64,000 bases of DNA from Candidatus Nanoarchaeia archaeon (lineage in GTDB: Archaea; Nanobdellota; Nanobdellia; WJKC01): the NCBI GenBank assembly GCA_041653515.1, contig JBAZFG010000002.1, positions 125,632 through 189,631 on the forward strand. The letters are read 5' to 3'. The notes under the pieces were generated by a model. The model had not been told where the DNA came from. It saw only the letters and a list, made by a program, of their open reading frames with translations, and did not search any database. Positions 1 through 61,545 of this stretch are shown here, piece after piece. The position numbers and the translations under genes were made by a program. How positions within the stretch are numbered: the stretch's first letter is position 1; every line of letters starts with the position of its first letter.

Positions 1-198
1 AAATATAACTGCGGCAAGCTAATCAGACCATTCATAAAAAAACACAAAAAGGAAGGGGTTAAAAGATTATTGTATAAAAAGTCATTTATAAGTTTTGAAT
101 CATTAAAAAAAGAACCAATTACTTATATGGGCTTTTTATTTATGAAATCTCTGGAGTTTACTGCGTGGTGCTTTGGTATCCTAAGAAGCTTTTTCTGA
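1..198 (+). CDS. 3' end of an ORF entering from upstream of the window (65 codons, no recognisable domain)
   Basis: Frame 1 is open from base 1 to TGA at 196-198. It overlaps the convergent radical SAM gene by 18 nt, as most convergent pairs here do. Confidence 0.25.
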   Translation, partial: KYNCGKLIRPFIKKHKKEGVKRLLYKKSFISFESLKKEPITYMGFLFMKSLEFTAWCFGILRSFF

Positions 199-4430: not shown

Positions 4431-7279
4431 TTATTATTACCTTTAATTTTTAGTATTACAAATAAGCATAGGGCAAAGTACCCAATAATACCAATTATGC
4501 CACCAATCAATCTGTTAAGTCTTACAATAAAACCTGAAATTATGATTATAAAAAATGATAATGCAAGTAAATTATTATCAGGTTCTTTTAAAAATAAATA
4601 AATTAAATCATTTTTGATTAATTTATTACTAAATTTTTTGAGATTAGTTTTATACACTTTGATTTTTTTTGGATAATCTTTTGCATTTTTGCCATGTTTG
4701 AATGTTAATAATATGTTAAAGCAAATTATTTTGAGAGTTGATATTGTATACACAAAAAATAATTTTATATACTTATACAAGTTTTTAGTGTGATTACTTG
4801 ACAGTATTTTTGGTAATAGGGTAATAATCAATAATATTAAAGTAACTAATGAGATACTTATCCCTGCACTGTAAGTTAATTGTTCAGACTGATACAATCT
4901 AACAGTATAACTACCCGTTTCATTAATATAAAACGCATTAGCGAACCCGTTAACTACAAAATGATTAAATTTAGTGTTATTTGATTCTGCAATCCAGTCC
5001 TCATCATAACTCTCTGAAAAGACTAAGAAGAATGGTTCACTATTGTTTACGTTGATATTGTATTCGGCAGGATTGGTTTTTATGAATGAAATGTCTGCTT
5101 CATGTACTGCATTGTTGTTTTTTTGTTCTATTGTTTCTAGATCATTACTTATTGCAATACTTGCAAGAAGGGCTTCTCCATTGCTTGTAATGTTTATCCT
5201 ATCAGTTGCGCTGCCAAAATAATGCCATGCAATATCAGTTGAATTGCTTGCTATACTATTAGCAATTATACTGCCTGTAAACTTAATGTACAACCCGCCA
5301 GAAGTGTTAATTGGTATTGTAACTATTGAATTTGGCATTAATGTGATTATTGAACTGTCAATGCCGCTGGTGTAAACAACGTTGTACCACCACCAGCCAA
5401 ATGAATAATCAAATAATCTTGCCCAGCCGTTTGAAGCATTGCTTGTTGTTATGAATTCAGAAGGCTTTAATTTAGTTGAATTGATTAACTCAGAATCAAA
5501 GGTGTTGTCATTGATTTCATCAACCAGATTGACAAGCGCGCTGTCATCTTGTTGTATTGCAAAGAAAATCGCGGGTTTTGAACAATTGTAATCAAGCAGG
5601 TTGTTAATATTAGAGTCAACTAATGAGCTGTGCTCTGCAGCGTATATTACTGGAAGACTATTATTAACCTCAAAGACTTTGATATTGTTATAACTATTCA
5701 TTGTTATTTTTGTCTCGTTTAACTGGCTCTTCAAGTAATCAGTTTTAGATAAACCAAATGATGATACAACTTCAGGGTAATTCCTCGCGTATATTGAATA
5801 ATTGCCAAATTCGGAAATAAAATCATCCCTTGATATAACATACTTAATATTTAGTAGTCTTAACAGGCTGCTTAAATTTGAGTCTGACTCACTACGTATT
5901 AAATTTGATAAAAAAGCAGTAACTCTATTGGAATCTGATTCTACACTTATAACTTGATTAAGTGATGATTTTGGTGAGTATGTAATCATAGGGTCAATGC
6001 CTGCATAATCCAATCCTGTCATGCTTATTGGCTGGTCCAAAGGGAAGTAAAGAACCCTATAATCACTAGGGTCATTAATTAATGAATTAGTTATTTCTCC
6101 ATAACCATTACTCCATTGGTAATCTTGTAACTGCCCCATAAAATTTCCTGAAAATAATGGCAGCGCAAACAATATTATTGCAATTGGAAAAAGAATCCTT
6201 TTGCTTTTTAACAGGTTATAACTTGAGCCTAATAACAGTGCATAGCAGAATGCTGGGATAAACAATAAGTGCTGTGATTCCCTAAACAAGCCAATAAGTG
6301 GTATATTCAAGAATGCTTCCCCGAATGGTGGGTTTGGGCCTTTTGATAAGAACAAACCGATTGCAGTGGTTATTATAAAAAACCATATTTGTTTATCCTT
6401 TGATTTAATGTTAGGCAACAGTAGAATTAGTATTAGTGCGCCGCCACCAATTACTGGTATTAACAGCCAGTTCCATATAGCATCAACAAAATATTTGGCA
6501 CCGATTAATAATGGCACTGCAAAAAATGGAGGGGCATTTCTTGTGATTATGTCAATGCTTGTTGAATAATTAATAGTCGAACTTGACGTGCCGAAATTTA
6601 ACAATATTGGCATTAACCAGAATGAATGGGTTAATAACAAACTTGCGGATATAACTAATGAATTAAAAAATAATTTTTTATCTCTCATGAATATAGAATA
6701 ACAAATCATCAACAAAGGCACCATTATAAAGAACTGCAATTGTGTTACAGTAAAAGTTATCAGTATTATTGAGAGAATCAAATTTGTTTTATTGTCCTTT
6801 GATTTTATGAATGACAGGAATAATAATGGTGCAAGCATGTAAGAAAACAAGTAAGTGATGTGGCCTGCGACAACCCTGTTAAAAACAATTGGGTTTAATG
6901 CATATAACAATCCAGATAATATCCCTGCTTTGTTATTCTTTAAGACATGCCTGCTTAATAAAAACATAAAATAAGCACTGCAGAATACAAATGCTACTAT
7001 TAGCATTCTAGTTAAGAAAACACCCCCCAGACCTATTGAGCTTAGTAAACCAAGGCCTGCGTAAAAAAAGAAAACGCTTTGATAGTCCCATGTTGTTCCT
7101 AAATCTCTTTCATTCCATACATAAAAAAGGTTTTCTGATCCCTTGGTTATCATCTCACCAAATTGAGGTATACTCCAGTCATGTCTGTAACCAATTGCTC
7201 CATTTGCAGCCAGAATCCTCCAGGTTACAAGAATGCTTATAATGGCGAATAAGCAGATCACTAAAAAGTTCTTTCTCAC
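4427..7279 (-). CDS. Tandem paralogue of 1701-4430: large polytopic membrane protein, GT-C/YfhO-like architecture
   Basis: Same layout as 1701-4430. C-terminal block YDEDWIAESNNTKF..NAFYINETGSYTVRLYQSEQ aligns with the neighbour. ATGA overlap at 4427-4430. Confidence 0.5.
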   Translation of the reverse strand: MRKNFLVICLFAIISILVTWRILAANGAIGYRHDWSIPQFGEMITKGSENLFYVWNERDLGTTWDYQSVFFFYAGLGLLSSIGLGGVFLTRMLIVAFVFCSAYFMFLLSRHVLKNNKAGILSGLLYALNPIVFNRVVAGHITYLFSYMLAPLLFLSFIKSKDNKTNLILSIILITFTVTQLQFFIMVPLLMICYSIFMRDKKLFFNSLVISASLLLTHSFWLMPILLNFGTSSSTINYSTSIDIITRNAPPFFAVPLLIGAKYFVDAIWNWLLIPVIGGGALILILLLPNIKSKDKQIWFFIITTAIGLFLSKGPNPPFGEAFLNIPLIGLFRESQHLLFIPAFCYALLLGSSYNLLKSKRILFPIAIILFALPLFSGNFMGQLQDYQWSNGYGEITNSLINDPSDYRVLYFPLDQPISMTGLDYAGIDPMITYSPKSSLNQVISVESDSNRVTAFLSNLIRSESDSNLSSLLRLLNIKYVISRDDFISEFGNYSIYARNYPEVVSSFGLSKTDYLKSQLNETKITMNSYNNIKVFEVNNSLPVIYAAEHSSLVDSNINNLLDYNCSKPAIFFAIQQDDSALVNLVDEINDNTFDSELINSTKLKPSEFITTSNASNGWARLFDYSFGWWWYNVVYTSGIDSSIITLMPNSIVTIPINTSGGLYIKFTGSIIANSIASNSTDIAWHYFGSATDRINITSNGEALLASIAISNDLETIEQKNNNAVHEADISFIKTNPAEYNINVNNSEPFFLVFSESYDEDWIAESNNTKFNHFVVNGFANAFYINETGSYTVRLYQSEQLTYSAGISISLVTLILLIITLLPKILSSNHTKNLYKYIKLFFVYTISTLKIICFNILLTFKHGKNAKDYPKKIKVYKTNLKKFSNKLIKNDLIYLFLKEPDNNLLALSFFIIIISGFIVRLNRLIGGIIGIIGYFALCLFVILKIKGNNK

Positions 7280-7287: not shown

Positions 7288-8443
7288 TTACCTTTTTTGT
7301 GTTATAAATGTTTTCTTAACGTTGTTCAGCATGTCAGTTAACTGCAGCATTACTTTTTTGGTTGAGTATTGCTTTGCGTAAGCTTTTAGTCCTGGTCGCG
7401 GTCGCTCTTTTAGTAATTTGATTATTGCGTTAGCCCAATTAATTGCTTTATAAGGCTCGACTAACTCACCGTTTTCCTTGTTTACTAACTCGTTAAGCGG
7501 CCTGACGTTGCTGGCCAGCACTGGCTTGCCAAGAGCCCATGACTCAAGCAATACTAGTCCAAACCCTTCAACAGTGCTTGGGTTAACAACGAATTTTGAT
7601 TCACTGATTATCTTTAATTTATCAGCATGGCTGACCCTGCCAGTAAACGTAATACTGTTATTAACTCCGAGCCTGCGCGCGAGTGCCATTCACTGCTTCT
7701 TCATTGGACCATCACCAACTATTACGAACTTGGCTTTAGGGTCACGGCCGAGCACTGAAAGCATAGCCCTAATTATTGTGTTAACGTTCTTGTAGAAAAC
7801 GTGCCGGCCAATAAAACAAAACTGATTCTTGAGTCCGGCTCGCAGGTTTTTGTAATCAGCCAAGTCAATCATACAAGGCATGACTTTGATTGGCCTCCTA
7901 ATACCAGCCTTAATTAAATTATCCCTGCTGACACTGCTGATAGTGTGAATTAATGCTGGCCTGAATTTGAGGATGATTTTCTCAAGCAATGGACCCATAA
8001 TTCCGAGGCCTTTGCTGACACCTATCTGCCTGCTCCACTTACTTTAGAACGGGCCACTTGAGTAAAAATCAAAGATGCTCATCAAATGAGAGATTTTAAG
8101 AAAATAAGAAACTAAATGAGCACTGACTGCCGGCGTGTAAGTATTAGAGTGAATGACGTCGGAGTCCTTAGCAATTTTCAGGCCAGCCCTGAATGACTTA
8201 ATAATAAATGAAGCATTATTCAACAAGCTCATGTTAAGGTGGCCTTTGTAATCAATTGGCCTGTCAACCAGGTAAACTTGATGCTGTCAATCTTCTCAAA
8301 AGAAGTAGTGCCCCTTAATTGCTGGGTGATAACATTGACTTCATGCTGCGCTTAACTAACTCGCGCGCGTACTGAAAGAACAAGTACTCGCCACCCCCAT
8401 AGATTGCTGGCGGGTATAAGTGAATGAATTGAGTTATTTTCAT
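7288..8443 (-). pseudogene. Decayed duplicate of the GT4 glycosyltransferase gene at 10659-11789
   Basis: Collinear with the intact paralogue from ATG (8443) to stop (7288), roughly three quarters identical by eye in the C-terminal 95 aa. In-frame TAA at 8044-8046 and TGA at 7690-7692. At least two frameshifts between ~8260 and ~8350. The ORF track splits it into three pieces (7288-7689, 7690-7998, 8044-8232). Confidence 0.85.
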
Positions 8444-8489
8444 TATGTGGAATTGATAAAGGAAACCCTAATAAAACTTACGCAAAGTA

Positions 8490-9173
8490 TTACTTTAAAT
8501 GATCCTTGAACTTGAAATAATTACTCGGGGTCCCAATGTCAATATAATAACCTTCGTATACTTCAGTCCGCATACCTTGTTTAATCAATAATGGGAATAC
8601 TTCTTTTTCAAAACTACTATTGCTAGCAGGTAATAAATCAAGCACACTTCTTTTTAGTAACAAGATGCCGGCGTTCATGAACTTATCATCCTCTGTTGGT
8701 TTCTCAGGCCGCTCTTTCAAGCCAGCAATCAGTCCAGCCTCATTAATTTTAATAATAGTCACTTGAGTAGGATTAACAGTCTTTGTTATAACCATAGTGT
8801 TCATTCCTGTTTTATTGAAGTTTTTTTTGAGTTTTTCATAGTCAAGCTCGTGATAATTATCACCATTAATGAGAATGAAGTCATCATCAATCAATTCTTC
8901 AGCATTCTTAATAGCGCCGCCAGTGCCGAGCGGCTCTGTTTCATCAGAGTACTTAATGTTCGCGCCCCACTTACTGCCGTCGCCGAAATAGTTCTTTATT
9001 ACGTCGCTTTTGTAACCTGTTAGGATTATTATTTCATCAAAGTGTTCTTTTAACTGGATTACTAAGTACTCGATTAATGGCTTGCCATTAAACTCAGCCA
9101 TTGGTTTTGGCCTGTCATTAACAATATCCTTTAGCCTCGTGCCCATGCCGCCAGCGAGGATGACTGCTTTCAT
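8490..9173 (-). CDS. Sugar-1-phosphate nucleotidyltransferase (HddC/ManC-like short form)
   Basis: N-terminal MKAVILAGGMGTRL (GxGTRL pyrophosphorylase signature); 227 aa single-domain form. Confidence 0.8.
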   Translation of the reverse strand: MKAVILAGGMGTRLKDIVNDRPKPMAEFNGKPLIEYLVIQLKEHFDEIIILTGYKSDVIKNYFGDGSKWGANIKYSDETEPLGTGGAIKNAEELIDDDFILINGDNYHELDYEKLKKNFNKTGMNTMVITKTVNPTQVTIIKINEAGLIAGLKERPEKPTEDDKFMNAGILLLKRSVLDLLPASNSSFEKEVFPLLIKQGMRTEVYEGYYIDIGTPSNYFKFKDHLK

Positions 9174-9195
9174 TGTATATTCTATTTTAGTTACC

Positions 9196-9208
9196 TTTTT
9201 AAATATTT
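9196..9208. promoter_or_regulatory. TATA-like box tttttaaatattt, candidate shared bidirectional promoter element
   Basis: Contains the palindrome aaatattt. Its centre (~9202) lies 29 nt from the ATG of the minus gene (9173) and 27 nt from the ATG of the plus gene (9229). Confidence 0.4.
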
Positions 9209-9228
9209 GATTGTAATTAGTTAATAAA

Positions 9229-11825: not shown

Positions 11826-12827
11826 CTAAATATTAATTATTTCATAGCCTTTGTCATTGAATTCGAATTCAATTTCATTAGCACCTTCTTTTTTTAGCGC
11901 GTTGCTGATATTGTTTTTAGTGTCTTCTTTGCAGGCCCATATCATGCAGCCCCCTCCGCCTGCGCCGCAGAAACGAGCACCAATTGCACCGTTGTCACGC
12001 GCTATTTTGTCTAGTAATTGCATTCTTTTTGTTGTAACACTTGGATTAAGTTTAGTTTTGAACTCCCAGTCCTTGGTGATTAATTCAGCGAATTGGTTAA
12101 TATCTTCATTTATTAGTGCATCCCTTAGTTCAATAGCAATTGCTTTGGTGTCATCAAGGTTCTTGACAGCGAATTCATTATCTTGCTCATACTTGTCTGT
12201 GTGACCTTGAAGCACTTGGCTTACATGCGGCTTGCCTGTGTACGCTAGTATCATGTTGTCATTAAGGTATTTTTTGAATGATGAGCTAATATTTAGTTTA
12301 CTTACTTTAACATTAGCTCCACCAAGGAATTCTATTTGATTAAACCCACCAAAAACACTTGTGTACTGGTCTTGCCTGCCACCAATATTCTTTAAGTCTT
12401 CTCGTTCAATAAGGAAGCCCATTTCAGCTATTTCATGGTCACTTAATGTTATATTCATTAATCCTTTTAGTGCTCCTATCACGCTGGTGCTTAGTGAGGC
12501 GCTTGCGCCTAAGCCTGATTTTGGTGGTATGTCGCTTCTGACAAAAACGTCAATACCATGGTTTGGTTTTAATCGTTTGATTATTGCTTTAATTAAATCA
12601 AGCTCAGTATCATATGTTAAGTCTTCAATTGAGTTTCTTTCGACAATTGTGTTGTAATCGTTTGAGATGATTTTAATTATACTATCATTGCGCTTGCAAG
12701 CGACTGTTCTAACAAATTGGTTTATTGCTGTATTAATAACAAAACCACCATGTTCGGTTGAGTAAGGTTCAATGTCACTTCCACCCCCACCAAAATCAAT
12801 TCGTACTGGTGCTTTGCAAACAATCAT
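11826..12827 (-). CDS. GHMP-family sugar kinase (HddA / heptose- or hexose-1-kinase-like)
   Basis: GHMP motif PPKSGLGASASL and C-terminal GAGGGG. Sits among nucleotidyltransferase genes. Confidence 0.8.
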   Translation of the reverse strand: MIVCKAPVRIDFGGGGSDIEPYSTEHGGFVINTAINQFVRTVACKRNDSIIKIISNDYNTIVERNSIEDLTYDTELDLIKAIIKRLKPNHGIDVFVRSDIPPKSGLGASASLSTSVIGALKGLMNITLSDHEIAEMGFLIEREDLKNIGGRQDQYTSVFGGFNQIEFLGGANVKVSKLNISSSFKKYLNDNMILAYTGKPHVSQVLQGHTDKYEQDNEFAVKNLDDTKAIAIELRDALINEDINQFAELITKDWEFKTKLNPSVTTKRMQLLDKIARDNGAIGARFCGAGGGGCMIWACKEDTKNNISNALKKEGANEIEFEFNDKGYEIINI

Positions 12828-12862
12828 TATTATAATATTTTAAATATAAACCTTAATAAAAC

Positions 12863-14770
12863 TTGTGTAGTTTAAGTTGTTTAATGAGGCGGGAGCATTT
12901 ATTATTATTGCTAATTTTGTTGCTTGGCGCTGGCTTGCGTTTGTATTCGTTGCGCAATGAATACTTCACTGGTAATGACGCGTTCATTCATTATAGTGTT
13001 ATCAGGCAGGCCTTGGTTGATGGCAACTTAGTTACTTATGAGCTTAGTTATGGTAATCCTGTTATTCTTGAGCCGTTGGGCTTTTATTTAGTGACACTTA
13101 TCCCATCATTTGTTCTTGGGCTTGACATAGCTTTCCTGTTAATGCCTGTGTTGTCTGGCGTGCTGTGCCTGCTGGTTGCTTATTACTTGTTAAGGGATTT
13201 GTTTGGCGAGCGAGCGGCTTTGATTGCAGTGCTGTTATTATCCTTGTCAATGGCTCATATTTACCGCACGAGCGCTAACACTTATCGGGGTGATGGTTTC
13301 TTCCTGACTGCTTTCTTGTTAACGCTTTATTATTTCAATAAGTCACTTAAGGCATCAGTTAAGTATTCAGTAGTTACTGGCTTGTTAATGACTCTTTGCG
13401 CTTCCTTGTGGAATGGTTATCCATTAGGCGTGATTGTTATTATCAGTGGTTTGATAATTAATTCAACTCTTAAGTTCTTGAAGAATGATTTTGCTAAAAA
13501 GGATTTGACTAATATTTTTGCTTTATTAGTGACTTATTATTTCACTGAGTTAATTCTTATTTTGACTGGCGTTACTAAGCGTTTGTTTTTCACGAGCAAT
13601 AACGCTGTTCACGCGGTCATTACTTTTGCGCCTTTGTTTATTGGGGTGATTTATTATTTCACTAAGCGCGTTAAGAAGTCAAGTGTTCTTGGCGTGCTGG
13701 CGGTTGTTGGGGTAGTCTTGTTGTTGTTGAATATTAATACAGTTTCATCGTTAGTGGCTCAGTCATTGTTTGAGAATACTTTGTTCTATGAAGTTGGTGT
13801 TAGTGAATTATTGCCGCCAACTTTTGATTTGTTGAGCGCGATGCTATCATGGTCTCTTTTCCTGATGTGGCCTGGCTTGTTGTTATTAGTGTTGCTAATC
13901 CTGAAGAAGCGTGACGCGCGCCATATTACTTTTCTTGTTTGGTCAGTTATAACAATTTACTTGATGCTTAATTACTCGCGTTATAATTTCATTGTATCAG
14001 TCAGCGCCGCTGCCTTGTCCGCACTGTTCATTAATTATCTTTATTTAAAGGCAGAGCAGTATCGTAAGAACGCTGGTCTTGTGCTGGTCTTAGTTCTTGT
14101 CCTGCTTTATGTGTTTGTTATTCCTTTAACAGGGTCTGTCACTAATTTGTTTAATAATCTTAACAGTGTTAGTCCGCGCGTGAATGCAGAGTGGGCTGAT
14201 GCCTTGACTTGGATGAGAGATAATCTTGAGCCTGACTTAACTGTTACTTGGTGGGACCATGGCTCTTGGGTTCAGTATTTTGCTGGTTTTCCCACAATTG
14301 CTGATAGTGTTACTGGTCAGGATATTGGCCGGATTACTCGAGTGGCTCAATTCTTGATGACTGCTAAGAATGATACTTTTAGTGACCTTGGCGCTAAGTA
14401 CTTAGTCTTGGGGGCTGATGACGTTCTTTATTCTAATGCAATTGTTAGTATTGCTGATGTTAGGGGTTTTGAGATGTATGGGCTTGACAGTGGTTATTTC
14501 CAATCAAATGATGATGAGTTGTATTTTATTAGCGGCGACCTTGTGCTCGCGCCTCGTTTCGTGTTCTTTGCTAATCAGTCAATTCCGTTGATAGAGTCTA
14601 ATGGCACTGGTTGTTTGATGATTAATTATCTTGAGCCAAGGCCTTATTTATTATTCCTTAATGATTATGCTTGCAATACTAATTATGCTCAATTAATGTT
14701 TGGTCTGGGCTTGCCTGGTTTTGAATTATTGTATCAGAATGATTATGTAGTTGTTTATAGGATTGAATGA
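12863..14770 (+). CDS. Short AglB/STT3-like oligosaccharyltransferase paralogue (variant WWDHG motif)
   Basis: Thirteen or so TM segments followed by TVTWWDHGSWVQYFAG (WWDYG-type motif). First-loop acidic motif GNDAFIHY. The likely true start is the ATG at 12884. Confidence 0.65.
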   Translation: MCSLSCLMRREHLLLLLILLLGAGLRLYSLRNEYFTGNDAFIHYSVIRQALVDGNLVTYELSYGNPVILEPLGFYLVTLIPSFVLGLDIAFLLMPVLSGVLCLLVAYYLLRDLFGERAALIAVLLLSLSMAHIYRTSANTYRGDGFFLTAFLLTLYYFNKSLKASVKYSVVTGLLMTLCASLWNGYPLGVIVIISGLIINSTLKFLKNDFAKKDLTNIFALLVTYYFTELILILTGVTKRLFFTSNNAVHAVITFAPLFIGVIYYFTKRVKKSSVLGVLAVVGVVLLLLNINTVSSLVAQSLFENTLFYEVGVSELLPPTFDLLSAMLSWSLFLMWPGLLLLVLLILKKRDARHITFLVWSVITIYLMLNYSRYNFIVSVSAAALSALFINYLYLKAEQYRKNAGLVLVLVLVLLYVFVIPLTGSVTNLFNNLNSVSPRVNAEWADALTWMRDNLEPDLTVTWWDHGSWVQYFAGFPTIADSVTGQDIGRITRVAQFLMTAKNDTFSDLGAKYLVLGADDVLYSNAIVSIADVRGFEMYGLDSGYFQSNDDELYFISGDLVLAPRFVFFANQSIPLIESNGTGCLMINYLEPRPYLLFLNDYACNTNYAQLMFGLGLPGFELLYQNDYVVVYRIE

Positions 14771-19511: not shown

Positions 19512-20279
19512 CTACTTAGGATTATTGTGTGACTTATAAATTCTTATGAAATCAATCAAGTACCTGATAGTGCTAAACCATAATTTGGCGTTGCCTTTCC
19601 AGTAGCGTGGGTGGTAATCAAATATTAATATGTATTTGATTAATTGTTTTAAGTAAACCATTATCTCTTTGTTAAACGCTTTATCCTTCTTGACACGCTC
19701 AATGTGCATCATCATGTACTTACCACCTTTATCATACTTGCCTTGCTTTGGGTAATGGAGTGTGTCGCCTTTTAGTTCCTTAATTGTTGCTTGTTTTATG
19801 ATAACTGCCCGCTCGTGGAACTTATTCACAAATTTTATCAAACCTTGTTTTGATAATTTTGGCTCACCCCGAATGAATCGTGTAGTCAGGCAGGCCTGAC
19901 TGTTATCAAATTTGAAGTAGTTCCTTCGCTTGATTAAGTAAACGTCAGCTAATTCCTCTTCTTTTATTCCTTTAATGTTCTTTATTAGTTCTTTTGACAA
20001 AAACTCATCAGTATCAAGATAAAGCACATACCAGCCTTTTTTAACTGATTTTAAACCCTTATTTCTTATTTCTGAGAAGTCCTGAGCCTTACAATTAATT
20101 ACCCTGACTTTCTTTGATGCATTCTTAGCTATTTGTATTGTGTCATCACTTGAATTATCTATCAATACTATCTCATCAGCGATTGATTCAACGTTCCTAA
20201 CCCAGTCTTTAATGTTTTCCCCTTCATTCATTGTTGGCGCCTGGACACTTATCTTCATGTTACTTTCTAATAATAGCAA
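19512..20279 (-). CDS. GT2 (GT-A fold) glycosyltransferase
   Basis: LIDNSSDDT and a DTDE (DxD) motif. The likely true start is the ATG at 20258 (MKISVQAP). Confidence 0.7.
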   Translation of the reverse strand: MLLLESNMKISVQAPTMNEGENIKDWVRNVESIADEIVLIDNSSDDTIQIAKNASKKVRVINCKAQDFSEIRNKGLKSVKKGWYVLYLDTDEFLSKELIKNIKGIKEEELADVYLIKRRNYFKFDNSQACLTTRFIRGEPKLSKQGLIKFVNKFHERAVIIKQATIKELKGDTLHYPKQGKYDKGGKYMMMHIERVKKDKAFNKEIMVYLKQLIKYILIFDYHPRYWKGNAKLWFSTIRYLIDFIRIYKSHNNPK

Positions 20280-20280
20280 C

Positions 20281-20290
20281 TTTTAAAAAA
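20281..20290. promoter_or_regulatory. TATA-like box ttttaaaaaa, candidate shared bidirectional promoter element
   Basis: The centre lies ~27.5 nt from ATG 20258 (minus gene) and ~27.5 nt from ATG 20313 (plus gene). Confidence 0.4.
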
Positions 20291-20312
20291 TGATGTCCTC
20301 TATCGTGATTTA

Positions 20313-27634: not shown

Positions 27635-27656
27635 GTTATTTATAATTAATGCAAAC

Positions 27657-27666
27657 TTTTTAAATA
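27657..27666. promoter_or_regulatory. TATA-like box tttttaaata between divergent GT4 genes
   Basis: The centre lies ~27.5 nt from the minus-gene start (27634), and 22.5 or 28.5 nt from the plus-gene ATGs at 27684 and 27690. Confidence 0.35.
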
Positions 27667-27683
27667 CTTTTTATTCATTAATA

Positions 27684-28736
27684 ATGAGTATGCGTATTGC
27701 TTTCGTTATTATTGGTTACCACCCAACTATTGGAGGTTATGGCAGGCATGTTAAACTGGTTTCTGATGAGCTTCGCAGGCGGGGCCACGAAGTCACTATT
27801 TTGACTACTAATTTTAGCCCTGGGCTTGTTGAAGCTGAGTCAGGCGTTATTAGGTTTAAACATGACCCTTTGTTTAAGATTACGCCGTCGCTTTTCTCGC
27901 ACTTGCTTCATAATGATTATGACCTTGTTCACGTTTTTGGTTATCAGAGTTTCCAGCCGTCAATTACTGCTTTGGCTAAGTGTTTTAAGAAATTCCCGTT
28001 AGTGTTTACTCCTCATTATCACCCATTCGGCCATAAGCCAATGTCATTGAGGAAATTGTTTGATGTCACGTTTGGTAATTACTCGCTTAGTCATGCTGAT
28101 TACGTTGTTACTACTACAGATTATGAGATGCGATTGCTTCGCCATCGCGCTAATCATATTAAAGTGATTCCTAATCCTTTAGAGGTTGATAAGCTCAAGA
28201 AGTTGAAAGGTTTTAAGCGCAAGTATGGCCTGAAGGGTGATTTTGTCTTGTTTGTTGGCCGGATTGAGCAGGATAAGGGTTTGCAGTACTTGATTCCGGC
28301 TGTTAAGGGCCTTGATACTACTTTGGTCGTGATTGGCAATGACGCTGGCTTTAAAGCTGAGTTACCAGTTCAGGGTAATGTCTTGTTTACTGGGCCTTTA
28401 TCGCAGGATGATTTGATGCGGGCTTATAATGAGTGCGCGTTTTTAGTGTTGCCGAGCCGTTATGAATCATTTGGGTTAGTGTTAATTGAAGCTATGCATT
28501 ATTCTAAGCCAGTGATTGCTTCGCGTGTTGGTCCTGTTCCATCGATTGTTAAGGATACTGGTTTAGTCGTGCCTTATGGCGATGTTAATGGGTTGCGTTT
28601 AGCTGTTACTAAATTATTGTCTGATAAGAAGTTGCGCCAATCAATGGGCCGTTATGCTTACCGTAACTCACTTGTTTATGGGGTTGATAATGTTGTTGAT
28701 AAATTATTAATGATTTATAATAAGGTGATTGAGTGA
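27684..28736 (+). CDS. GT4 glycosyltransferase
   Basis: ESFGLVLIEAMHYSKPVIASRVGPVP block; N-terminal GGYGRHV. Confidence 0.8.
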   Translation: MSMRIAFVIIGYHPTIGGYGRHVKLVSDELRRRGHEVTILTTNFSPGLVEAESGVIRFKHDPLFKITPSLFSHLLHNDYDLVHVFGYQSFQPSITALAKCFKKFPLVFTPHYHPFGHKPMSLRKLFDVTFGNYSLSHADYVVTTTDYEMRLLRHRANHIKVIPNPLEVDKLKKLKGFKRKYGLKGDFVLFVGRIEQDKGLQYLIPAVKGLDTTLVVIGNDAGFKAELPVQGNVLFTGPLSQDDLMRAYNECAFLVLPSRYESFGLVLIEAMHYSKPVIASRVGPVPSIVKDTGLVVPYGDVNGLRLAVTKLLSDKKLRQSMGRYAYRNSLVYGVDNVVDKLLMIYNKVIE

Positions 28737-33880: not shown

Positions 33881-33958
33881 TATTAAGAAACCTTCACTGG
33901 CGAACTGTTTATTAATTTTTCTATACTATACGCTTTTAAATTAATCTTTCATTAGTTT

Positions 33959-35506
33959 TTGTTAATGCTAGATAAGTTATGGCAGTACGTAGTTGATAAT
34001 AAAGCGTTCTTCATAGTTATTCCATTAATATTGTTATGGACTCGTTTTGATTACGAGTCTTTTGCGATGAGCGTGACCCCGTTTGGCGTGCCGTTAGATG
34101 ATGCTTATATTGGTTATCAGTTCGCGCGCAACTTTGCTCAGGGCAGAGTATTAGAATATAATGTTGGCGAGCAGACTACTGGCGCGTCAACCTTGTTATG
34201 GCCTTTGGTGATGGCATTGATTTACTTATTGACTGGTTACTTATACCCTAATTACGTGATTGCTTTTCTAGTCATATCAAAAGTCACTGCCACAATCCTT
34301 TACTTCTTGTCAATCACTGGCATTTATTATTTGAGCCAGAAGTATTATTTCAAGAATAAGTTTGCTAGCGTGATGCTCTGCTCGTTCCTTGCTTTAGAGT
34401 TGCACATGCTTTGGGGCACGCTGAGTGGGATGGAGATGTCATTGTTTGCTTTCCTAATAACGTTCATGCTGATTGCTTTGCGTGAGAATAAGATTAAGCT
34501 TGGCGCAGTGCTTGGTGGTTTGATTGGTTTAACAAGACCTGAGGGCATGGTTTTGTACCCTGGGTTAATTCTCTTATTATTCTTCTTTAAGTTAGTTAAG
34601 ACTAAGAAAATAGTTTTTAGGGAAGTTAAAGAATTATTATTGCAATTAATTATTTTTGTTGTGATAATGATCCCTTGGCCAATCCTTAATTACATGATTT
34701 CAGGCAAGCCTTTGCCAGCGACTTTTTACATGAAAGGCGGCGTGGTTAGTCTTGCTAATTTGTTGGGTGGTTTCACGTTCGTGTTTGACGTGCTTAATTT
34801 GTTTGGCAGTGATTACGCTTTGTCATTATTATTCGTGGCTGGCGTGATTATTTATTTTGCGCTGAAGAAAGAGTTCAGTCCTGAGGCCTTACTTGCTATA
34901 ATCTTCATGGTTCTTTACGGCACAGCAATCCCTAACCTGACTGGTTTTGGTCGTTATTACATGCCTGTTTTCCCAATAATCGCTTTGGTTGCTTTCTACT
35001 CATTCAAGTTAATTGAGGGTGTTTTACCTTCTAAGTTTAAGAAGTTTGGTTCAGCGTTATTAATGCTCGTGCCAATGATAATAATCACTGTTGTGGCTTC
35101 ACCAATGGCTAATTATCAATTAAGTAATTATGATGTTTGGAAACAAGTTTATGGACATAACGTTTATAGTATTAATCATTTTGAGGTGGCAATGGCTTAC
35201 TGGTTGATTGATAATTCACAAATAACTGATGTTGTTGGCACTTGTGATATTGGTGCGCCTAGTTTTATTGCTAACCGCTACTTGGTTGATGTGTTTGGTT
35301 TGATTGGGCCTGAGGTCAGGTCTTGGAATGGAACTTATGATAGTTACTTGCGTTATCGCAACGTTACTTATTATATTGATTACCCTGCTAACGCTAATGA
35401 TAAAGTTAAGGCTAATTGCACTATTGTTTACAATACTACTTACTTGTCAATGATTACTATTACTGCCGGTTACCAGATGGCTATCTATAAATGCGAGTGG
35501 CTTTAA
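33959..35506 (+). CDS. Polytopic membrane protein, GT-C-like
   Basis: First-loop motif VPLDDAYIGYQFARNFAQG, about 12 TM segments and a C-terminal soluble domain. The likely start is the ATG at 33965. Confidence 0.5.
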   Translation: MLMLDKLWQYVVDNKAFFIVIPLILLWTRFDYESFAMSVTPFGVPLDDAYIGYQFARNFAQGRVLEYNVGEQTTGASTLLWPLVMALIYLLTGYLYPNYVIAFLVISKVTATILYFLSITGIYYLSQKYYFKNKFASVMLCSFLALELHMLWGTLSGMEMSLFAFLITFMLIALRENKIKLGAVLGGLIGLTRPEGMVLYPGLILLLFFFKLVKTKKIVFREVKELLLQLIIFVVIMIPWPILNYMISGKPLPATFYMKGGVVSLANLLGGFTFVFDVLNLFGSDYALSLLFVAGVIIYFALKKEFSPEALLAIIFMVLYGTAIPNLTGFGRYYMPVFPIIALVAFYSFKLIEGVLPSKFKKFGSALLMLVPMIIITVVASPMANYQLSNYDVWKQVYGHNVYSINHFEVAMAYWLIDNSQITDVVGTCDIGAPSFIANRYLVDVFGLIGPEVRSWNGTYDSYLRYRNVTYYIDYPANANDKVKANCTIVYNTTYLSMITITAGYQMAIYKCEWL

Positions 35507-38328: not shown

Positions 38329-38417
38329 ACTAGAAATTAGTTTAATTAGTATTATAAGACTTTTTTAAAATTTTTTTAGAATCATAAAATTTATTTTATA
38401 AAAACTCTAAAGATGAA

Positions 38418-38573
38418 ATGCGTAAGTACAAGCCAAAGTATTTGTACTTAATTAAACAATTAAAAGATAGAGGTGTTGTGCATACTAAAATAAGGAGTGA
38501 TAAACAGTTATGCATTAAGTTAACACCTACTGGTCATTTTCTGTTAAAAATTTTGAACAAAGCGGGTAATTAA
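38418..38573 (+). CDS. Small ORF (51 aa), possibly a winged-helix-like DNA-binding protein; below the ORF-track cutoff
   Basis: Translates to MRKYKPKYLYLIKQLKDRGVVHTKIRSDKQLCIKLTPTGHFLLKILNKAGN. Its TAA shares a TTAA with the convergent NUDIX stop, a pattern seen at three other convergent pairs. Confidence 0.3.
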   Translation: MRKYKPKYLYLIKQLKDRGVVHTKIRSDKQLCIKLTPTGHFLLKILNKAGN

Positions 38574-38986: not shown

Positions 38987-39035
38987 GAATTAAAAATTAC
39001 CAGATAATCCATTAAGTATTTTGTGATTACCTTTT

Positions 39036-40141: not shown

Positions 40142-40177
40142 TAAGGAAATGTTAGGGTGATTAGTTTTTTAATTGTT

Positions 40178-44838: not shown

Positions 44839-44860
44839 TATTAAAGGTTCCGATAATAAG

Positions 44861-44870
44861 TCTTAAATAA
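44861..44870. promoter_or_regulatory. TATA-like box tcttaaataa shared by cdc6 and the divergent ORF
   Basis: The centre (~44866) is 28 nt from ATG 44838 and 27 nt from ATG 44893. Confidence 0.4.
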
Positions 44871-44892
44871 TTGTTAAGCACAATAATTAATC

Positions 44893-46393: not shown

Positions 46394-46444
46394 ATTCTTT
46401 ATTACCCATAATCTTTTTTATAACAATTACTGTCCTACAATCCC

Positions 46445-47440: not shown

Positions 47441-48211
47441 TTATTTTCTTTTTTTCTTGAAAAAACTCTTAGCAGGTCCTTCCTTGATCGCCCAGCCAAA
47501 ACCAATGCCAATAGCAAGGCTAATACCAAGACTAACCCCTAATACAATATACTTAAAAGTGTCTTCGAGTAAGCTTGTGTTAGTTAGGCCGAATTTTGGT
47601 AAAGCCATTACCACTGCAAAGAATAATATAATGCCATAAACAATTTCTGCTATTGTCTCGTTGAATGGTATTGCGTTGCTCTTGATTTTCTTGCGCACGA
47701 AGTCAGCAAATACCATTGCAATAATTATTATTCCTGCCCCAACGCTTACTTCTGGTATTGCTCTTATTATGCCGTCAAATAATTCTGCCAAGAAAGTTAG
47801 GCTGGTCCTGACAGCTGCTTCTTTGAGGAATATAATGATAATGTAATACTTAACTATTAAGCTGACCGCATTAGTTACTGATATATTATAGAGTGATTCT
47901 TTTAGTTTCATTTTTTTTAGCCATTCATCAATTTGTGAGGCAGTCATTAATTTCTTGATTATTACTTCACTTATTTTTGCCACAACCCAACCGAGTAGTA
48001 ATATTAGTAATGCAGTGATTATTTTTGGCAAAGCTAGTATTAATGCTGTGGCTGATTCTTGTAATGCTTGAGCTGGTAATTCAACAATATTTAGTAAAGT
48101 ATCATTAACCATTATTCTTGTCTTAATGACCGTTAATTTTAAAACGTTTACTAATACTATTATTATTTGTATGGAGCTTGATTCACAGTTAGAAAAAGAG
48201 TACGCGCGCAC
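47441..48211 (-). CDS. Membrane protein (conserved TM-helix-repeat type)
   Basis: Four or five TM segments. The likely start is the ATG at 48112 (MVNDTLLNIV), which removes the overlap with the divergent gene. Confidence 0.5.
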   Translation of the reverse strand: MRAYSFSNCESSSIQIIIVLVNVLKLTVIKTRIMVNDTLLNIVELPAQALQESATALILALPKIITALLILLLGWVVAKISEVIIKKLMTASQIDEWLKKMKLKESLYNISVTNAVSLIVKYYIIIIFLKEAAVRTSLTFLAELFDGIIRAIPEVSVGAGIIIIAMVFADFVRKKIKSNAIPFNETIAEIVYGIILFFAVVMALPKFGLTNTSLLEDTFKYIVLGVSLGISLAIGIGFGWAIKEGPAKSFFKKKRK

Positions 48212-49274: not shown

Positions 49275-49294
49275 AATCCTTATATGCGCATCCT

Positions 49295-50197
49295 GTGTAT
49301 AAAAGACTTATGTTGTCGCGGGTCGCATCTGATATTAAGGCGTTGCGCATTCAGGGTGCGACTAATATTGCTTATGCCAGTCTTAGTGCTTTGCGCTACG
49401 TGATGAGTAAATCTGTTAAGTCATCCAAATCTTTATTCGTTAAAGAATTATTGTCTGCGCGTAAATTATTGTTTAATGCCCGGCCTAATGAGCCAATGAT
49501 GTTTAACGCGCTTAATCACGTTATTAATAGTATTAATGATTATAGTGGTCTTGACTTCAAGGTTTATGGCTTGAGTGTTCTTGACTCGTTGAAGTCAAGG
49601 GTTGATTTAGCTAAAACTGCGATGACTAAGGTTGGGGCTGGTTTGTTAAAGAAGAATAGTGTGTTATTCACTCATTGCCACTCGAGCAGTGTGATGAGTA
49701 TTATTAAGTCAGCTAAGCCAAGAGAAGTGTATTGCACTGAGAGCAGGCCTCGTTATCAGGGTCGCATTACTGCCACTGAATTAATTAAGGCAGGGCTGAA
49801 GGTTAATATGATTGTTGATTCAGCGGTTGCTGATTATGTTAAGAAAGCTGATTGCTTCCTGATTGGTTGTGATGTTATCACGTCAACTAATATTATTAAT
49901 AAGGTTGGCTCGCGAATGATTTCTATTCTCTGCGATAAGTATGATATCCCATTGTACGTCTGCTCGTTGAGTTATAAGTTCGAGCCTGGCTCGATTGATG
50001 GTTTTATTAGCGCTGTTGAGGAGCGTAACACTAAGGAGGTCTGGGATAAACCACCGCGTGGACTGCAGATTCATAACCCTGCATTTGACGTGGTTGACTT
50101 TGAGGCTATATCTGGTTTCATCACTGACTTAGGGGTTTTGCCGCCTAATTCTTTTATTAATGCGATGCGACAAAAGAAAGGTAAGTTGTTTGATTAA
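49295..50197 (+). CDS. e2b2: Ribose-1,5-bisphosphate isomerase (eIF-2B alpha/beta/delta family)
   Basis: IQGATNIA, CTESRPRYQGRITATEL and IGCDVITS blocks. Adjacent to AMP phosphorylase. The likely start is the ATG at 49310. Confidence 0.8.
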   Translation: MYKRLMLSRVASDIKALRIQGATNIAYASLSALRYVMSKSVKSSKSLFVKELLSARKLLFNARPNEPMMFNALNHVINSINDYSGLDFKVYGLSVLDSLKSRVDLAKTAMTKVGAGLLKKNSVLFTHCHSSSVMSIIKSAKPREVYCTESRPRYQGRITATELIKAGLKVNMIVDSAVADYVKKADCFLIGCDVITSTNIINKVGSRMISILCDKYDIPLYVCSLSYKFEPGSIDGFISAVEERNTKEVWDKPPRGLQIHNPAFDVVDFEAISGFITDLGVLPPNSFINAMRQKKGKLFD

Positions 50198-50204
50198 TAA
50201 TTCA

Positions 50205-50217: not shown

Positions 50218-50260
50218 ATAAGGGTAATATCTTTAAATCCTGATATGTTAAGAAACATTA

Positions 50261-51748: not shown

Positions 51749-51782
51749 AGTTTTTAAACCAATCATTGTTTTCTTTTCTTTC

Positions 51783-58210: not shown

Positions 58211-58239
58211 CTAATTCTTTATCTCGATACACATATAAA

Positions 58240-58647
58240 TTGATTTTGTTATCTTTATTATTCATGGAAGTTATTGTTGACATTTTTGATCCTAGCAAAC
58301 AGGAGTTCATTATTGGTGACCGTAGATTACCAAGCTACTTTGTTGGTAATGTAATTGGTCATTTAAAGGGTTATAAATTGTTAGGGGATGATAGTGTCCA
58401 GCAGATGCTTCCGTTACTTAATGAAATTGAATTAAATATGTATAAAACGCTTGATGATAAAACTACTCAATTAAGATTCTTGGCTTCTAAGCTGGTTGAG
58501 AAATTAACTTTTTTTGGCTCATATGACGAGCGAGTTATTATCTTAGAGGATTTCATTAACTCTGAATGTGATATGTATGTTAAGAAATTAAGGATTGATG
58601 ACCAGACTAAGAAAGAGTTAAAGCGCTTAATGGCTCTTACTCGATAA
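58240..58647 (+). CDS. Hypothetical protein
   Basis: Intact ORF. The likely start is the ATG at 58264, which places a TATA-like box (58233-58240) ~27 nt from both divergent starts. Confidence 0.4.
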   Translation: MILLSLLFMEVIVDIFDPSKQEFIIGDRRLPSYFVGNVIGHLKGYKLLGDDSVQQMLPLLNEIELNMYKTLDDKTTQLRFLASKLVEKLTFFGSYDERVIILEDFINSECDMYVKKLRIDDQTKKELKRLMALTR

Positions 58648-61456: not shown

Positions 61457-61545
61457 TTATTAACTCCTCTTTTTTTAACGTTGCGTAATTATTATCGCAT
61501 TATTTTTTTAAGATTTTTCCCAAGAAGACTTTAAATAATCCTAAT

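What the first reader, a model, noticed from the sequence alone, without database searches (positions are those of the whole stretch)
9174..9228. Divergent gene pairs share one central TATA-like box ~27-28 nt from both start codons (spacer fixed at ~52-59 nt)
Divergent start-codon pairs and their spacings are: 9173|9229 (56 nt), 12827|12884 (57), 20258|20313 (55), 27634|27690 (56), 44838|44893 (55), 46393|46445 (52), 48112|48171 (59) and 58210|58264 (54). In each spacer a single A/T box sits near the midpoint. Examples are tttttaaatattt at 9196-9208, ttttaaaaaa at 20281-20290, tcttaaataa at 44861-44870, ttttttata at 46414-46422 and atataaat at 58233-58240. Each box lies ~25-29 nt from both ATGs. 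Unidirectional genes show the same ~27-nt TATA-to-ATG distance, for example 50233-50239 to 50261, 51751-51758 to 51783 and 61529-61538 to 61561. This implies leaderless mRNAs and single boxes serving both directions. A variant occurs at 49275-49309, where only 35 nt separate the starts. There, two boxes (ttatat at 49280-49285 and tataaaa at 49298-49304) each lie 27 nt from the start on the far side, giving interdigitated promoters. There are two caveats. For about half of the pairs I chose the first ATG rather than the ORF-track alternative start. Also, A/T boxes are easy to find in AT-rich DNA, so the constrained spacing is the stronger evidence.
Basis: partly seen in the sequence, partly recalled or inferred. 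Interest (0 to 1): 0.55.

Follow-up and report, generated by a model that had tools for sequence, protein, structure and literature searches.

The report
Shared TATA boxes between divergent genes
In this uncultured DPANN-type (Nanoarchaeia) archaeon, most back-to-back gene pairs are about 54 bases apart with one symmetric TTTAAA-type TATA box in the middle, which is a clear new example of the already described archaeal bidirectional promoter combined with leaderless mRNAs.

Summary
All nine start-codon pairs exist. The true spacers are 55, 56, 54, 55, 54, 51, 58 and 53 nt, plus one of 35 nt.

TTTAAA-type hexamers peak sharply 28-32 nt upstream of start codons across the window. The T/A junction lies between -28 and -27, and an A-rich BRE-like block sits at -35/-34. 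That geometry predicts a shared-box spacer of 2x27 = 54 nt, which is what is seen.

- **Independent model:** a matrix trained only on unidirectional genes finds a promoter-like match at the right register on both strands of every such spacer. Combined P against shuffled spacers is about 1e-9.
- **Held-out data:** one divergent pair from the same organism, outside the window, has a 52-nt spacer with a central TTTAAA.
- **Relatives:** orthologous spacers conserve only the central box.
- **Length classes:** 37 divergent pairs from this organism and its relatives fall at 33-39, 51-59 or at least 77 nt, apart from one 17-nt database call.

This matches published archaeal bidirectional promoters, with divergent start sites 52 bp apart around a shared TATA box and a minor 36-bp class.

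Caveats: there are no transcript data. The Cdc6 pair may really be 78 nt. The central box of 12827|12884 is weak.

Verdict: real, well explained, and a new member of a known kind.

The parts
9174..9228 (.). 55-nt spacer between the HddC-like nucleotidyltransferase gene (start 9173, minus strand) and an epimerase-domain gene (start 9229, plus strand). The shared box TTTTTAAATATTT lies at 9196-9208.
   Evidence: TTTAAA at 9198-9203 starts at -31 from the plus gene and -30 from the minus gene. PWM scores are 8.1 and 5.0. The database gene call gives the same starts. NCBIfam supports 9173.
12828..12883 (.). 56-nt spacer between the HddA-like kinase gene (12827, minus) and the AglB/STT3 gene (12884, plus). 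The central box CCTTAATAAAAC at 12851-12862 is weak, and an off-centre TTTTAAATATAAA lies at 12838-12850.
   Evidence: PWM scores are 3.6 and 6.1. The shuffle P is only 0.25. This is the weakest member of the set.
20259..20312 (.). 54-nt spacer between a GT2 gene (20258, minus) and an AglF-like nucleotidyltransferase gene (20313, plus). The shared box TTTTAAAAAA lies at 20281-20290.
   Evidence: TTTAAA starts at -31 and -29. PWM scores are 6.3 and 7.5 with shuffle P 0.007. The independent gene call gives the same starts.
27635..27689 (.). 55-nt spacer between two GT4 genes (GTG 27634, minus; ATG 27690, plus). The shared box TTTTTAAATA lies at 27657-27666.
   Evidence: TTTAAA starts at -31 and -30. 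With the alternative ATG 27684 the box would sit at -25. PWM scores are 9.0 and 11.5 with shuffle P 0.0006. An NCBIfam model aligns residue 1 of the 27690 product to profile position 1.
44839..44892 (.). 54-nt spacer between Orc1/Cdc6 (ATG 44838, minus) and a 163-aa gene (44893, plus). The box TCTTAAATAA lies at 44861-44870. This pair is AMBIGUOUS: orthologues start at the position of ATG 44814, which has its own TTTAATA box at 44839-44846.
   Evidence: Orthologue N-termini are shown. The PWM score is 5.4 for start 44838 and 4.1 for start 44814. If 44814 is the start, the pair is 78 nt with two separate boxes.
46394..46444 (.). 51-nt spacer between a 171-aa gene (46393, minus) and FEN1 (46445, plus). 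The shared box TTTTTTATAA lies at 46414-46423.
   Evidence: TTTATA starts at -28 and -29. PWM scores are 6.5 and 7.4 with shuffle P 0.002. The block TTTTTATAACA is identical in the orthologous 53-nt spacer of L010. The independent gene call agrees.
48113..48170 (.). 58-nt spacer between an MscS-like gene (48112, minus) and a DUF357 gene (48171, plus). The shared box TTTTAAAA lies at 48137-48144.
   Evidence: Orthologue N-termini support both starts, although the database caller chose ATG 48126 for DUF357. TTTAAA starts at -33 and -31. Orthologous spacers of 59 nt (L010) and 55 nt (L012) have a central box in the same place; its sequence is near-identical in L010.
58211..58263 (.). 53-nt spacer between NucS (58210, minus) and a 127-aa gene (58264, plus). 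The shared box ATATAAAT lies at 58233-58240.
   Evidence: TATAAA starts at -30 and -29. PWM scores are 5.1 and 5.0. The independent gene call gives the same starts. NCBIfam supports 58210.
49275..49309 (.). 35-nt spacer with two interdigitated boxes. TTATAT at 49280-49285 would serve the plus-strand aIF-2B-family gene (49310). TATAAAA at 49298-49304 would serve the minus-strand 125-aa gene (49274).
   Evidence: The boxes start at -30 and -29 from the far-side start codons. The orthologous pairs are 35 nt in L008 and 39 nt in L010, with two conserved A/T islands. The alternative start 49256 chosen by the database caller gives a poorer PWM score (0.7 against 5.6) and has no counterpart in orthologues.
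33881..33964 (.). 84-nt divergent spacer with two separate back-to-back boxes. This is the contrast case.
   Evidence: TTTAAA at 33935-33940 starts at -30 from the plus gene at 33965. TTTATTAA at 33908-33915 lies about -28 to -35 from the minus gene at 33880.
61529..61538 (+). Box ACTTTAAATA, about 27 nt upstream of the MFS transporter start at 61561. It sits in a 104-nt divergent spacer and is not shared.
   Evidence: TTTAAA starts at -31 and the PWM score is 8.4. The neighbouring 939-aa gene (GTG 61456) has a GAGGAG Shine-Dalgarno-like motif instead of a well-placed box.
50233..50239 (+). Unidirectional example: box CTTTAAA upstream of the AMP phosphorylase-like gene (start 50261).
   Evidence: Seen in the aligned upstream regions. 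This gene was part of the PWM training set.
51751..51758 (+). Unidirectional example: box TTTTTAAA upstream of start 51783. The TAA stop codon of the upstream gene lies in the BRE position.

Best explanation
**What it is.** The window comes from a streamlined DPANN-type archaeon, whose FEN1 is named 'Candidatus Nanoarchaeia archaeon' by NCBI. Its intergenic DNA has shrunk to little more than the core promoter.

**Promoter layout.** Promoters are of the standard archaeal type.
- An A-rich BRE-like block lies at about -38..-33.
- A quasi-palindromic TATA box (consensus TTTTAAA) has its T/A junction between -28 and -27 relative to the A of the start codon.
- Because archaeal RNA polymerase initiates about 23-27 bp downstream of the box, transcripts of monocistronic and operon-first genes would begin at or within a few nucleotides of the ATG. 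That makes them leaderless mRNAs.
- Many operon-internal genes instead carry GGAGG/GGTGA-type ribosome-binding sites.

**How one box serves two genes.** TBP binds the symmetric box in either orientation, and TFB reads an A-rich tract on either flank. A single box midway between two divergent leaderless genes can therefore recruit the polymerase in either direction. This fixes the ATG-to-ATG spacer at about 2x27 = 54 nt.

**The three packings.**
1. Shared box, 51-59 nt.
2. Two crossed (interdigitated) boxes, 33-39 nt.
3. Two separate back-to-back promoters, at least 77 nt.

**Shown versus inferred.**
- Shown: the geometry, the statistics, conservation of the box, and agreement with the published spacing classes.
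- Inferred: that initiation really occurs at the ATGs, and in both directions from the same box.
For: 1. The host is archaeal and DPANN-like. The gene content includes Orc1/Cdc6, AglB/STT3, FEN1 and NucS. The FEN1 is 100% identical to a 'Candidatus Nanoarchaeia archaeon' MAG protein.
2. The position of the box relative to start codons is sharply peaked.
3. In tandem gene pairs the downstream promoter abuts the upstream gene. Spacers of 21-36 nt place the upstream TAA/TAG stop codon inside the TATA or BRE positions. This shows compaction down to the core promoter.
4. A PWM trained on 19 unidirectional genes scores both strands of all nine 51-58-nt spacers in the top 1.7% or better of all window positions. 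The register shift is 4 nt or less (3 nt or less for the window and L006 pairs). The combined P against shuffled spacers is 1.4e-9.
5. The predicted spacer of 54 nt matches the observed values 51, 52, 53, 54, 54, 55, 55, 56 and 58.
6. A held-out pair from the same organism, outside the window (L006 17541|17594), has a 52-nt spacer. Its TTTAAA lies at -28 and -30.
7. Spacers share no similarity outside the central 16 nt (0.33 identity against 0.35 expected). They are therefore not copies of a repeat.
8. Orthologous spacers in relatives with 58-62% FEN1 identity keep the length class. The central box is conserved while the flanks diverge.
9. 37 divergent spacers from this organism and eight related loci fall into 33-39, 51-59 or at least 77 nt, apart from one 17-nt database call in L011. 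None lies at 40-50 or 60-76 nt (P about 2e-5 under a uniform null).
10. Published start-site maps give the same two compact classes. In T. kodakarensis divergent start sites are 52 bp apart around a shared TATA box, with a minor 36-bp class, and H. volcanii is similar. P. furiosus has a BRE-TATA-BRE motif about 50 bp across, and in vitro its two start sites lie 49 bp apart.
Against: - No RNA data exist for this organism, so start sites and bidirectional use are inferred.
- The contrast between promoter boxes and Shine-Dalgarno motifs goes in the expected direction but is not significant. SD 5-mers occur in 2 of 26 box genes against 8 of 32 others (P = 0.16).
- Only about half of the genes at shared boxes have AA exactly at -35/-34. 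In three pairs one side lacks an evident BRE-like tract (9229, 12827, 20258), so one direction may be weak.
- The central box of 12827|12884 is not better than shuffles (P = 0.25).
- The Cdc6 pair may be 78 nt.
- Automatic gene callers chose other starts for DUF357 and for the 125-aa gene.
- In related genomes most divergent pairs are not in the 51-59-nt class, so the arrangement is frequent here but not obligatory.
Confidence: 0.8

Rival explanations
1. Only one gene of each pair uses the central box. The other would be transcribed from a promoter inside the neighbour's coding region, giving a long leader antisense to the neighbour's 5' end. The 54-nt spacing would then be just the minimum left by genome shrinkage.
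For: Three pairs lack an A-rich BRE-like tract on one side. PWM scores are asymmetric in some pairs, for example 9.8 against 3.3 at 48112|48171. P. furiosus work notes that the second BRE is usually weaker.
Against: Both strands score in the top 1.7% or better at the correct register in all pairs. Only one of these start codons (20313, a GTGAT 5-mer) has even a weak Shine-Dalgarno-like match upstream, although operon-internal genes in the same window often do have one. Pure shrinkage without a functional constraint would not leave empty length classes at 40-50 and 60-76 nt.
Confidence: 0.1
2. Each spacer holds two distinct but overlapping TATA elements, offset by a few bases within one A/T tract. 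The promoters would be overlapping and competing rather than truly shared.
For: Spacers vary from 51 to 58 nt. The preferred register differs by up to +/-3 nt between the two strands. Boxes are 8-13 nt long A/T tracts that could hold more than one TBP register.
Against: The conserved core is a 6-8-nt palindrome-like TTTAAA or TTTATA. TBP covers about 8 bp, so offsets of 1-3 nt occupy the same site. In practice this is a sub-case of the main explanation.
Confidence: 0.07
3. The pattern is an artefact. A/T-rich boxes are easy to find in AT-rich intergenic DNA, and the reader's freedom to pick start codons produced the apparent 52-59 spacing.
For: Two spacers are individually not significant against shuffles. 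One pair, Cdc6, is ambiguous.
Against: A strict first-ATG rule still gives 51-56 nt for six of 11 pairs. Independent gene calls reproduce four pairs and add a held-out fifth. Orthologues and NCBIfam models support the chosen starts. The combined shuffle P is 1.4e-9, and the conservative spacer P is 1e-5.
Confidence: 0.02
4. The fixed spacer reflects the binding site of a shared regulator, or a structural DNA element, rather than the basal promoter.
For: Several pairs lie in one glycosylation gene cluster and could be co-regulated.
Against: Outside the central 16 nt the spacers are no more alike than random sequence. The same geometry occurs at unrelated housekeeping pairs such as FEN1, NucS and MscS/DUF357. 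The conserved block is the TATA box itself.
Confidence: 0.01

Closest known systems
Archaeal bidirectional promoters with a shared TATA box, described for Thermococcus kodakarensis and Haloferax volcanii (Warman et al., bioRxiv 10.1101/2020.01.31.928960, later in Nature Microbiology 2021)
   Same: A single symmetric TATA element lies midway between divergent initiation points. The dominant spacing there is 52 bp, and here the A-to-A distance is 52-59 (mode 55-56). A minor 36-bp class has the BRE of one promoter overlapping the start site of the other. Here the A-to-A distance is 36 at 49274|49310, and the CAT of each start codon sits in the other gene's BRE position.
   Different: That work is based on mapped start sites, while this case is inferred from sequence only. 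Here both products would be leaderless protein-coding mRNAs, so the constraint shows up directly as a start-codon-to-start-codon distance. The spacing is 2-4 bp longer. The host is an uncultured DPANN-type archaeon.
The BRE-TATA-BRE bidirectional promoters of Pyrococcus furiosus (Gruenberger et al. 2019, PMC6640164)
   Same: There is a symmetric TTTAAA core with A-rich BRE-like tracts on both flanks. Initiation points are about 50 bp apart, and in vitro both directions were transcribed from one TATA box with start sites 49 bp apart.
   Different: In P. furiosus the second transcript is mostly a non-functional antisense RNA, and the mRNAs have leaders. Here both directions would serve genes, and the arrangement covers about 70% of divergent pairs in the sampled 74 kb.
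Leaderless transcription units in archaea inferred from a box about 27 nt upstream of the start codon. Known for Sulfolobales and haloarchaea (reviewed in PMC7289017; the in-silico approach of Torarinsson et al. 2005 is cited from my own knowledge).
   Same: The TATA-to-ATG distance is fixed. Shine-Dalgarno motifs are mainly confined to operon-internal genes.
   Different: I found nothing in the searched library on promoters or leaderless mRNAs in Nanoarchaeia or DPANN genomes. The extreme packing, with stop codons inside the TATA or BRE positions, is more pronounced than I know from model archaea.

Membership tests
Archaeal bidirectional promoter with shared TATA box | The host uses the archaeal TBP/TFB/RNAP machinery | tested here: met
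   The gene content is archaeal: Orc1/Cdc6, AglB/STT3, FEN1, NucS and an aIF-2B family protein. The FEN1 is identical to a 'Candidatus Nanoarchaeia archaeon' MAG protein. The TBP and TFB genes themselves are not in the window.
Archaeal bidirectional promoter with shared TATA box | A single TATA element lies midway between the two initiation points | tested here: met
   One TTTAAA-type box lies -28..-34 from both start codons in seven of eight listed pairs and in the held-out pair. 12827|12884 has only a weak central box.
Archaeal bidirectional promoter with shared TATA box | BRE-like element on both flanks (BRE-TATA-BRE) | tested here: inconclusive
   AA sits exactly at -35/-34 in 9 of 18 genes. 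A-rich tracts within +/-2 nt occur in most of the others. Three genes (9229, 12827, 20258) lack one. The BRE of this lineage has not been defined experimentally.
Archaeal bidirectional promoter with shared TATA box | Divergent transcription start sites about 49-52 bp apart, both active | not testable with these tools
   No transcript data are available. The proxy is an A-to-A start-codon distance of 52-59, consistent with start sites at or 1-3 nt upstream of the ATGs.
36-bp interdigitated divergent promoter class (Warman et al.) | Initiation points are about 36 bp apart, each TATA box is nearer to the opposite gene, and each BRE overlaps the opposite start | tested here: met
   At 49274|49310 the A-to-A distance is 36. 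The boxes start at -29 and -30 from the far-side starts. CATAA occupies -38..-34 on both strands. The arrangement is conserved at 35 and 39 nt in L008 and L010. Start sites themselves were not testable.
Leaderless archaeal mRNAs | The promoter box sits at a fixed distance of about 27 nt from the start codon | tested here: met
   There is a sharp positional peak, with 26 of 58 genes having a box starting at -33..-27.
Leaderless archaeal mRNAs | No Shine-Dalgarno motif at box-bearing genes, but a motif present at operon-internal genes | tested here: inconclusive
   SD 5-mers occur in 2 of 26 box genes against 8 of 32 others (odds ratio 0.25, P = 0.16). Clear GGAGG/GGTGA motifs are visible at 16055, 28733, 43784 and 52455.
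Leaderless archaeal mRNAs | 5' UTR of 8 nt or less by start-site mapping | not testable with these tools
   This requires dRNA-seq or Cappable-seq.

The most novel reading that the evidence does not exclude
In this Nanoarchaeia lineage, genome streamlining may have pushed promoter sharing to the limit. On this reading most divergent gene pairs are driven by one symmetric TATA box that yields two leaderless mRNAs. Tandem genes place the upstream stop codon inside the next gene's TATA or BRE positions. Intergenic lengths become quantised by promoter geometry, at about 21-36 nt for tandem pairs and about 35, about 54 or at least 77 nt for divergent pairs. Two consequences would follow. Many gene pairs would be coupled, or would compete, through mutually exclusive orientations of the pre-initiation complex. 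And start sites and true N-termini of uncultured DPANN archaea could be predicted from sequence alone.
Probability: 0.45. Interest if true: 0.4.

Novelty: new member of a known kind. Interest (0 to 1): 0.3.

Why it matters
- It extends a mechanism established by start-site mapping in Thermococcales and haloarchaea to an uncultured DPANN-type archaeon for which no transcript data exist.
- It shows that promoter geometry alone can explain the lengths of most intergenic regions in a streamlined archaeal genome.
- It gives a sequence-only rule for correcting start codons in such MAGs: the box sits 27-28 nt upstream of the true start. Here the rule favours 48171 and 27690 over automatic or first-ATG choices, and it flags the Cdc6 start as ambiguous.
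- It also predicts that many gene pairs share, and may compete for, a single TBP site.
- It does not reveal a new mechanism.

Tried and rejected
- **De novo motif search.** Position-blind Gibbs sampling on the 70-nt upstream regions gave only a weak, scattered motif, because the box has little information against the AT-rich background. I replaced it with a predefined TTTAAA-family scan and a position-anchored PWM.
- **Finding the source contig.** Exact-match searches for window DNA in genome contigs and metagenome contigs found nothing.
- **More sequence from the same organism.** The left end gave about 9.8 kb of new DNA (L006). Lookups near the right end returned only 2.9-kb and 3.0-kb contigs. 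The 192-kb NCBI contig could not be read, so a genome-wide histogram for this organism was not possible.
- **One failed lookup.** The 477-aa product of 18075-19508 is not on record.
- **Shine-Dalgarno exclusivity.** The test was in the expected direction but not significant.
- **N. equitans literature.** The RNA-processing paper held nothing on leaderless mRNAs or bidirectional promoters.
- **Repeated-element idea.** Rejected: the spacers are not similar outside the box.
- **Alternative start 49256.** This would turn the 35-nt pair into a 53-nt pair. I considered it and found it less likely, given a poor PWM score and no orthologous methionine.

Full report
**Source of the window.** The DNA is AT-rich (28-43% G+C) and archaeal. 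It encodes Orc1/Cdc6, AglB/STT3, FEN1, NucS, an aIF-2B-family protein next to an AMP-phosphorylase-like protein, and a large glycosylation cluster. Its FEN1 is 100% identical to a protein that NCBI names 'MAG: flap endonuclease-1 [Candidatus Nanoarchaeia archaeon]', on a 192-kb contig. The next relatives are only 64% identical or less. Species-representative genomes hold FEN1 relatives at only 42-52% identity, mostly labelled DPANN. Exact DNA matches were not found in the two large collections.

**The observation.**
- The quoted 'spacings' are coordinate differences. The real spacers are 55, 56, 54, 55, 54, 51, 58 and 53 nt, and 35 nt for the variant.
- The window has 11 divergent pairs. The two not listed are 33880|33965 (84 nt) and 61456|61561 (104 nt), and each has separate, unshared boxes.

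**Is the box-to-ATG distance real?** I selected 58 ORFs mechanically and took the first ATG as the start.
- The base profile shows A at -35/-34 (62% each), T at -32..-28 and A at -27..-24.
- Hexamers within one W-substitution of TTTAAA start at -32..-28 in 39 of 80 upstream occurrences, against 8.6 expected over the seven positions -33..-27. They are present there in 26 of 58 genes.
- The T/A junction therefore lies between -28 and -27.
- Archaeal polymerases initiate about 23 bp downstream of the box. This places start sites at or within a few nucleotides of the ATG, which is the classical in-silico signature of leaderless mRNAs.
- Operon-internal genes show GGAGG/GGTGA motifs instead. My formal test of exclusivity was only a trend (2 of 26 against 8 of 32, P = 0.16).
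- In tandem gene pairs the spacers cluster at 21-36 nt. The upstream TAA/TAG stop codon lies inside the downstream gene's TATA or BRE position. Intergenic DNA has been reduced to the core promoter.

**Divergent pairs.**
- A junction at -27.5 predicts a shared-box spacer of 54 nt. The observed values are 51-58.
- In unidirectional genes the BRE-plus-box occupies about -38..-23. Two separate promoters would therefore need at least about 76 nt. A 51-58-nt spacer forces the boxes to coincide.
- A PWM built only from 19 unidirectional genes (-40..-20) scores both strands of every such spacer in the top 0.01-1.7% of all window positions, within a few nucleotides of the expected register (3 nt or less here, up to 4 nt in relatives).
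- Against composition-preserving shuffles of each spacer the combined P is 1.4e-9. 12827|12884 (P = 0.25) and 9173|9229 (P = 0.06) are weak individually.
- The spacers are not copies of a repeat. Identity outside the central 16 nt is 0.33 against 0.35 expected.

**Start-codon checks.**
- Orthologues in four syntenic relatives support ATG 48112 (not GTG 48211), ATG 48171 (not 48126), ATG 49310 and ATG 49274.
- NCBIfam full-length models support 9173, 12827, 20258, 20313, 27690 and 58210.
- Database gene calls made without reference to promoters reproduce 9173|9229, 20258|20313, 46393|46445 and 58210|58264.
- Two disagreements are instructive. The caller took 48126 for DUF357 and 49256 for the 125-aa gene.
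- One listed pair is truly ambiguous. Orc1/Cdc6 orthologues begin at the residue encoded by ATG 44814. That start has its own TTTAATA box with AA at -35/-34 (PWM 4.1, against 5.4 for 44838). The pair may therefore be a 78-nt back-to-back arrangement.

**Held-out and comparative evidence.**
- About 9.8 kb of the same organism lying beyond the left edge of the window (L006) contains one divergent pair, 17541|17594. Its spacer is 52 nt, with TTTAAA at -28 and -30. This is the only out-of-sample test I could obtain for this organism, and it fits.
- Relatives with 53-62% FEN1 identity are syntenic.
- The MscS|DUF357 spacer is 58 nt here, 59 nt in L010, 55 nt in L012 and 33 nt in L011.
- The p171|FEN1 spacer is 51 nt here and 53 nt in L010, with an identical TTTTTATAACA core.
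- The p125|aIF-2B spacer is 35 nt here, 35 nt in L008 and 39 nt in L010, with two conserved A/T islands.
- Pooling 37 divergent spacers gives 6 at 33-39 nt, 13 at 51-59 nt and 17 at 77 nt or more. One is a 17-nt database call in L011. None lies at 40-50 or 60-76 nt (P about 2e-5 under a uniform null).
- The 51-59 class holds 9 of 12 pairs in this organism against 4 of 25 in relatives (P = 8e-4). Under the most conservative starts it is still 7 of 12.
- Orthologous pairs are not fully independent, and the bins were set after seeing the data. However, the two compact classes are the ones predicted by the -27.5 geometry and by the literature.

**Comparison with what is known.**
[quoted passage not shown] A minor class at 36 bp has the BRE of one promoter overlapping the opposite start site. 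H. volcanii behaves similarly.
- Gruenberger et al. found a BRE-TATA-BRE motif about 50 bp across in P. furiosus. They showed in vitro that one TATA box drives both directions, with start sites 49 bp apart, and attributed this to the symmetric TTTAAA core and symmetric TBP binding.
At 49274|49310 the A-to-A distance is exactly 36, and the CAT of each start codon lies in the other gene's BRE position.
- What differs here is the context. Both transcripts would be leaderless mRNAs, so the constraint appears as a start-codon-to-start-codon distance. The arrangement dominates the sampled divergent pairs. The host is an uncultured DPANN-type archaeon, for which I found no promoter or leaderless-mRNA literature.

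**Verdict.** Remaining uncertainty concerns function, because no 5'-end data exist, and two of the eight listed pairs. I rate it a new member of a known kind, with interest about 0.3.

Noticed in passing
window 62792-62935 (+): Rfam finds a tRNA (49.7 bits) with a 71-nt insertion in the anticodon-loop region, presumably an archaeal intron. ARAGORN reported no tRNA in the window.
   Followed up: partly
window, tandem junctions such as 18051/18075, 25465/25491, 53534/53560, 55597/55622, 56797/56824, 21041/21063, 29581/29615 and 51748/51783: In tandem gene pairs with 21-36-nt spacers, the upstream gene's TAA/TAG stop codon lies inside the downstream gene's TATA box or BRE-like tract. Examples are tgtataTAAag, actttaTAAac and attaagTAAagttttt. 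Coding and promoter signals overlap.
   Followed up: partly
window 44814-44846 (-): Orc1/Cdc6 has two in-frame candidate starts, 44838 and 44814. Each lies about 27 nt downstream of its own TATA-like box. Orthologues use the downstream one. There may be two start sites or an 8-residue N-terminal extension.
   Followed up: partly
window 48126-48170 and 49256-49274; locus L013: The automatic gene calls in the public collection start DUF357 15 codons too early and the 125-aa gene 6 codons too late, judged by orthologues. A box-at-27-nt rule would correct both.
   Followed up: yes
window 7288-8489 (-): Three short ORFs of 133, 102 and 62 aa lie here with untranslated gaps and no promoter-like boxes. 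The first hits only the C-terminal half of a GT4 domain. Together they look like remnants of a degraded glycosyltransferase gene.
   Followed up: no
window 1-7279: The G+C content falls to 28% over the first 4 kb. Two very large ORFs (909 and 950 aa) have no Pfam hits and sit next to a B12-binding radical SAM gene. They may be acquired or fast-evolving surface-related genes.
   Followed up: no
window 8490-9173 and 11826-12827: The best NCBIfam matches are to the D-glycero-D-manno-heptose pathway enzymes HddC and HddA. Both score below the family cut-offs. The genes lie in a cluster with AglB/STT3 and many glycosyltransferases, which hints at heptose-containing glycans in a DPANN archaeon.
   Followed up: no
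window 49310-51748: An aIF-2B-family gene (ribose-1,5-bisphosphate isomerase-like) lies next to an AMP-phosphorylase-like gene. This is the pairing of the archaeal AMP/RuBisCO salvage pathway, and it is conserved in the relatives L008 and L011. No RuBisCO gene is in the window.
   Followed up: no
window 38329-38569, 38987-39121 and 40142-40339: These intergenic regions (241, 135 and 197 nt) are unusually long for this very compact genome. I did not examine them for small genes or RNAs.
   Followed up: no
window 61457-61475 (-): The 939-aa gene (GTG 61456) has a GAGGAG motif 8 nt upstream and no well-placed box. It appears to be a leadered exception among the first genes of transcription units.
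   Followed up: no
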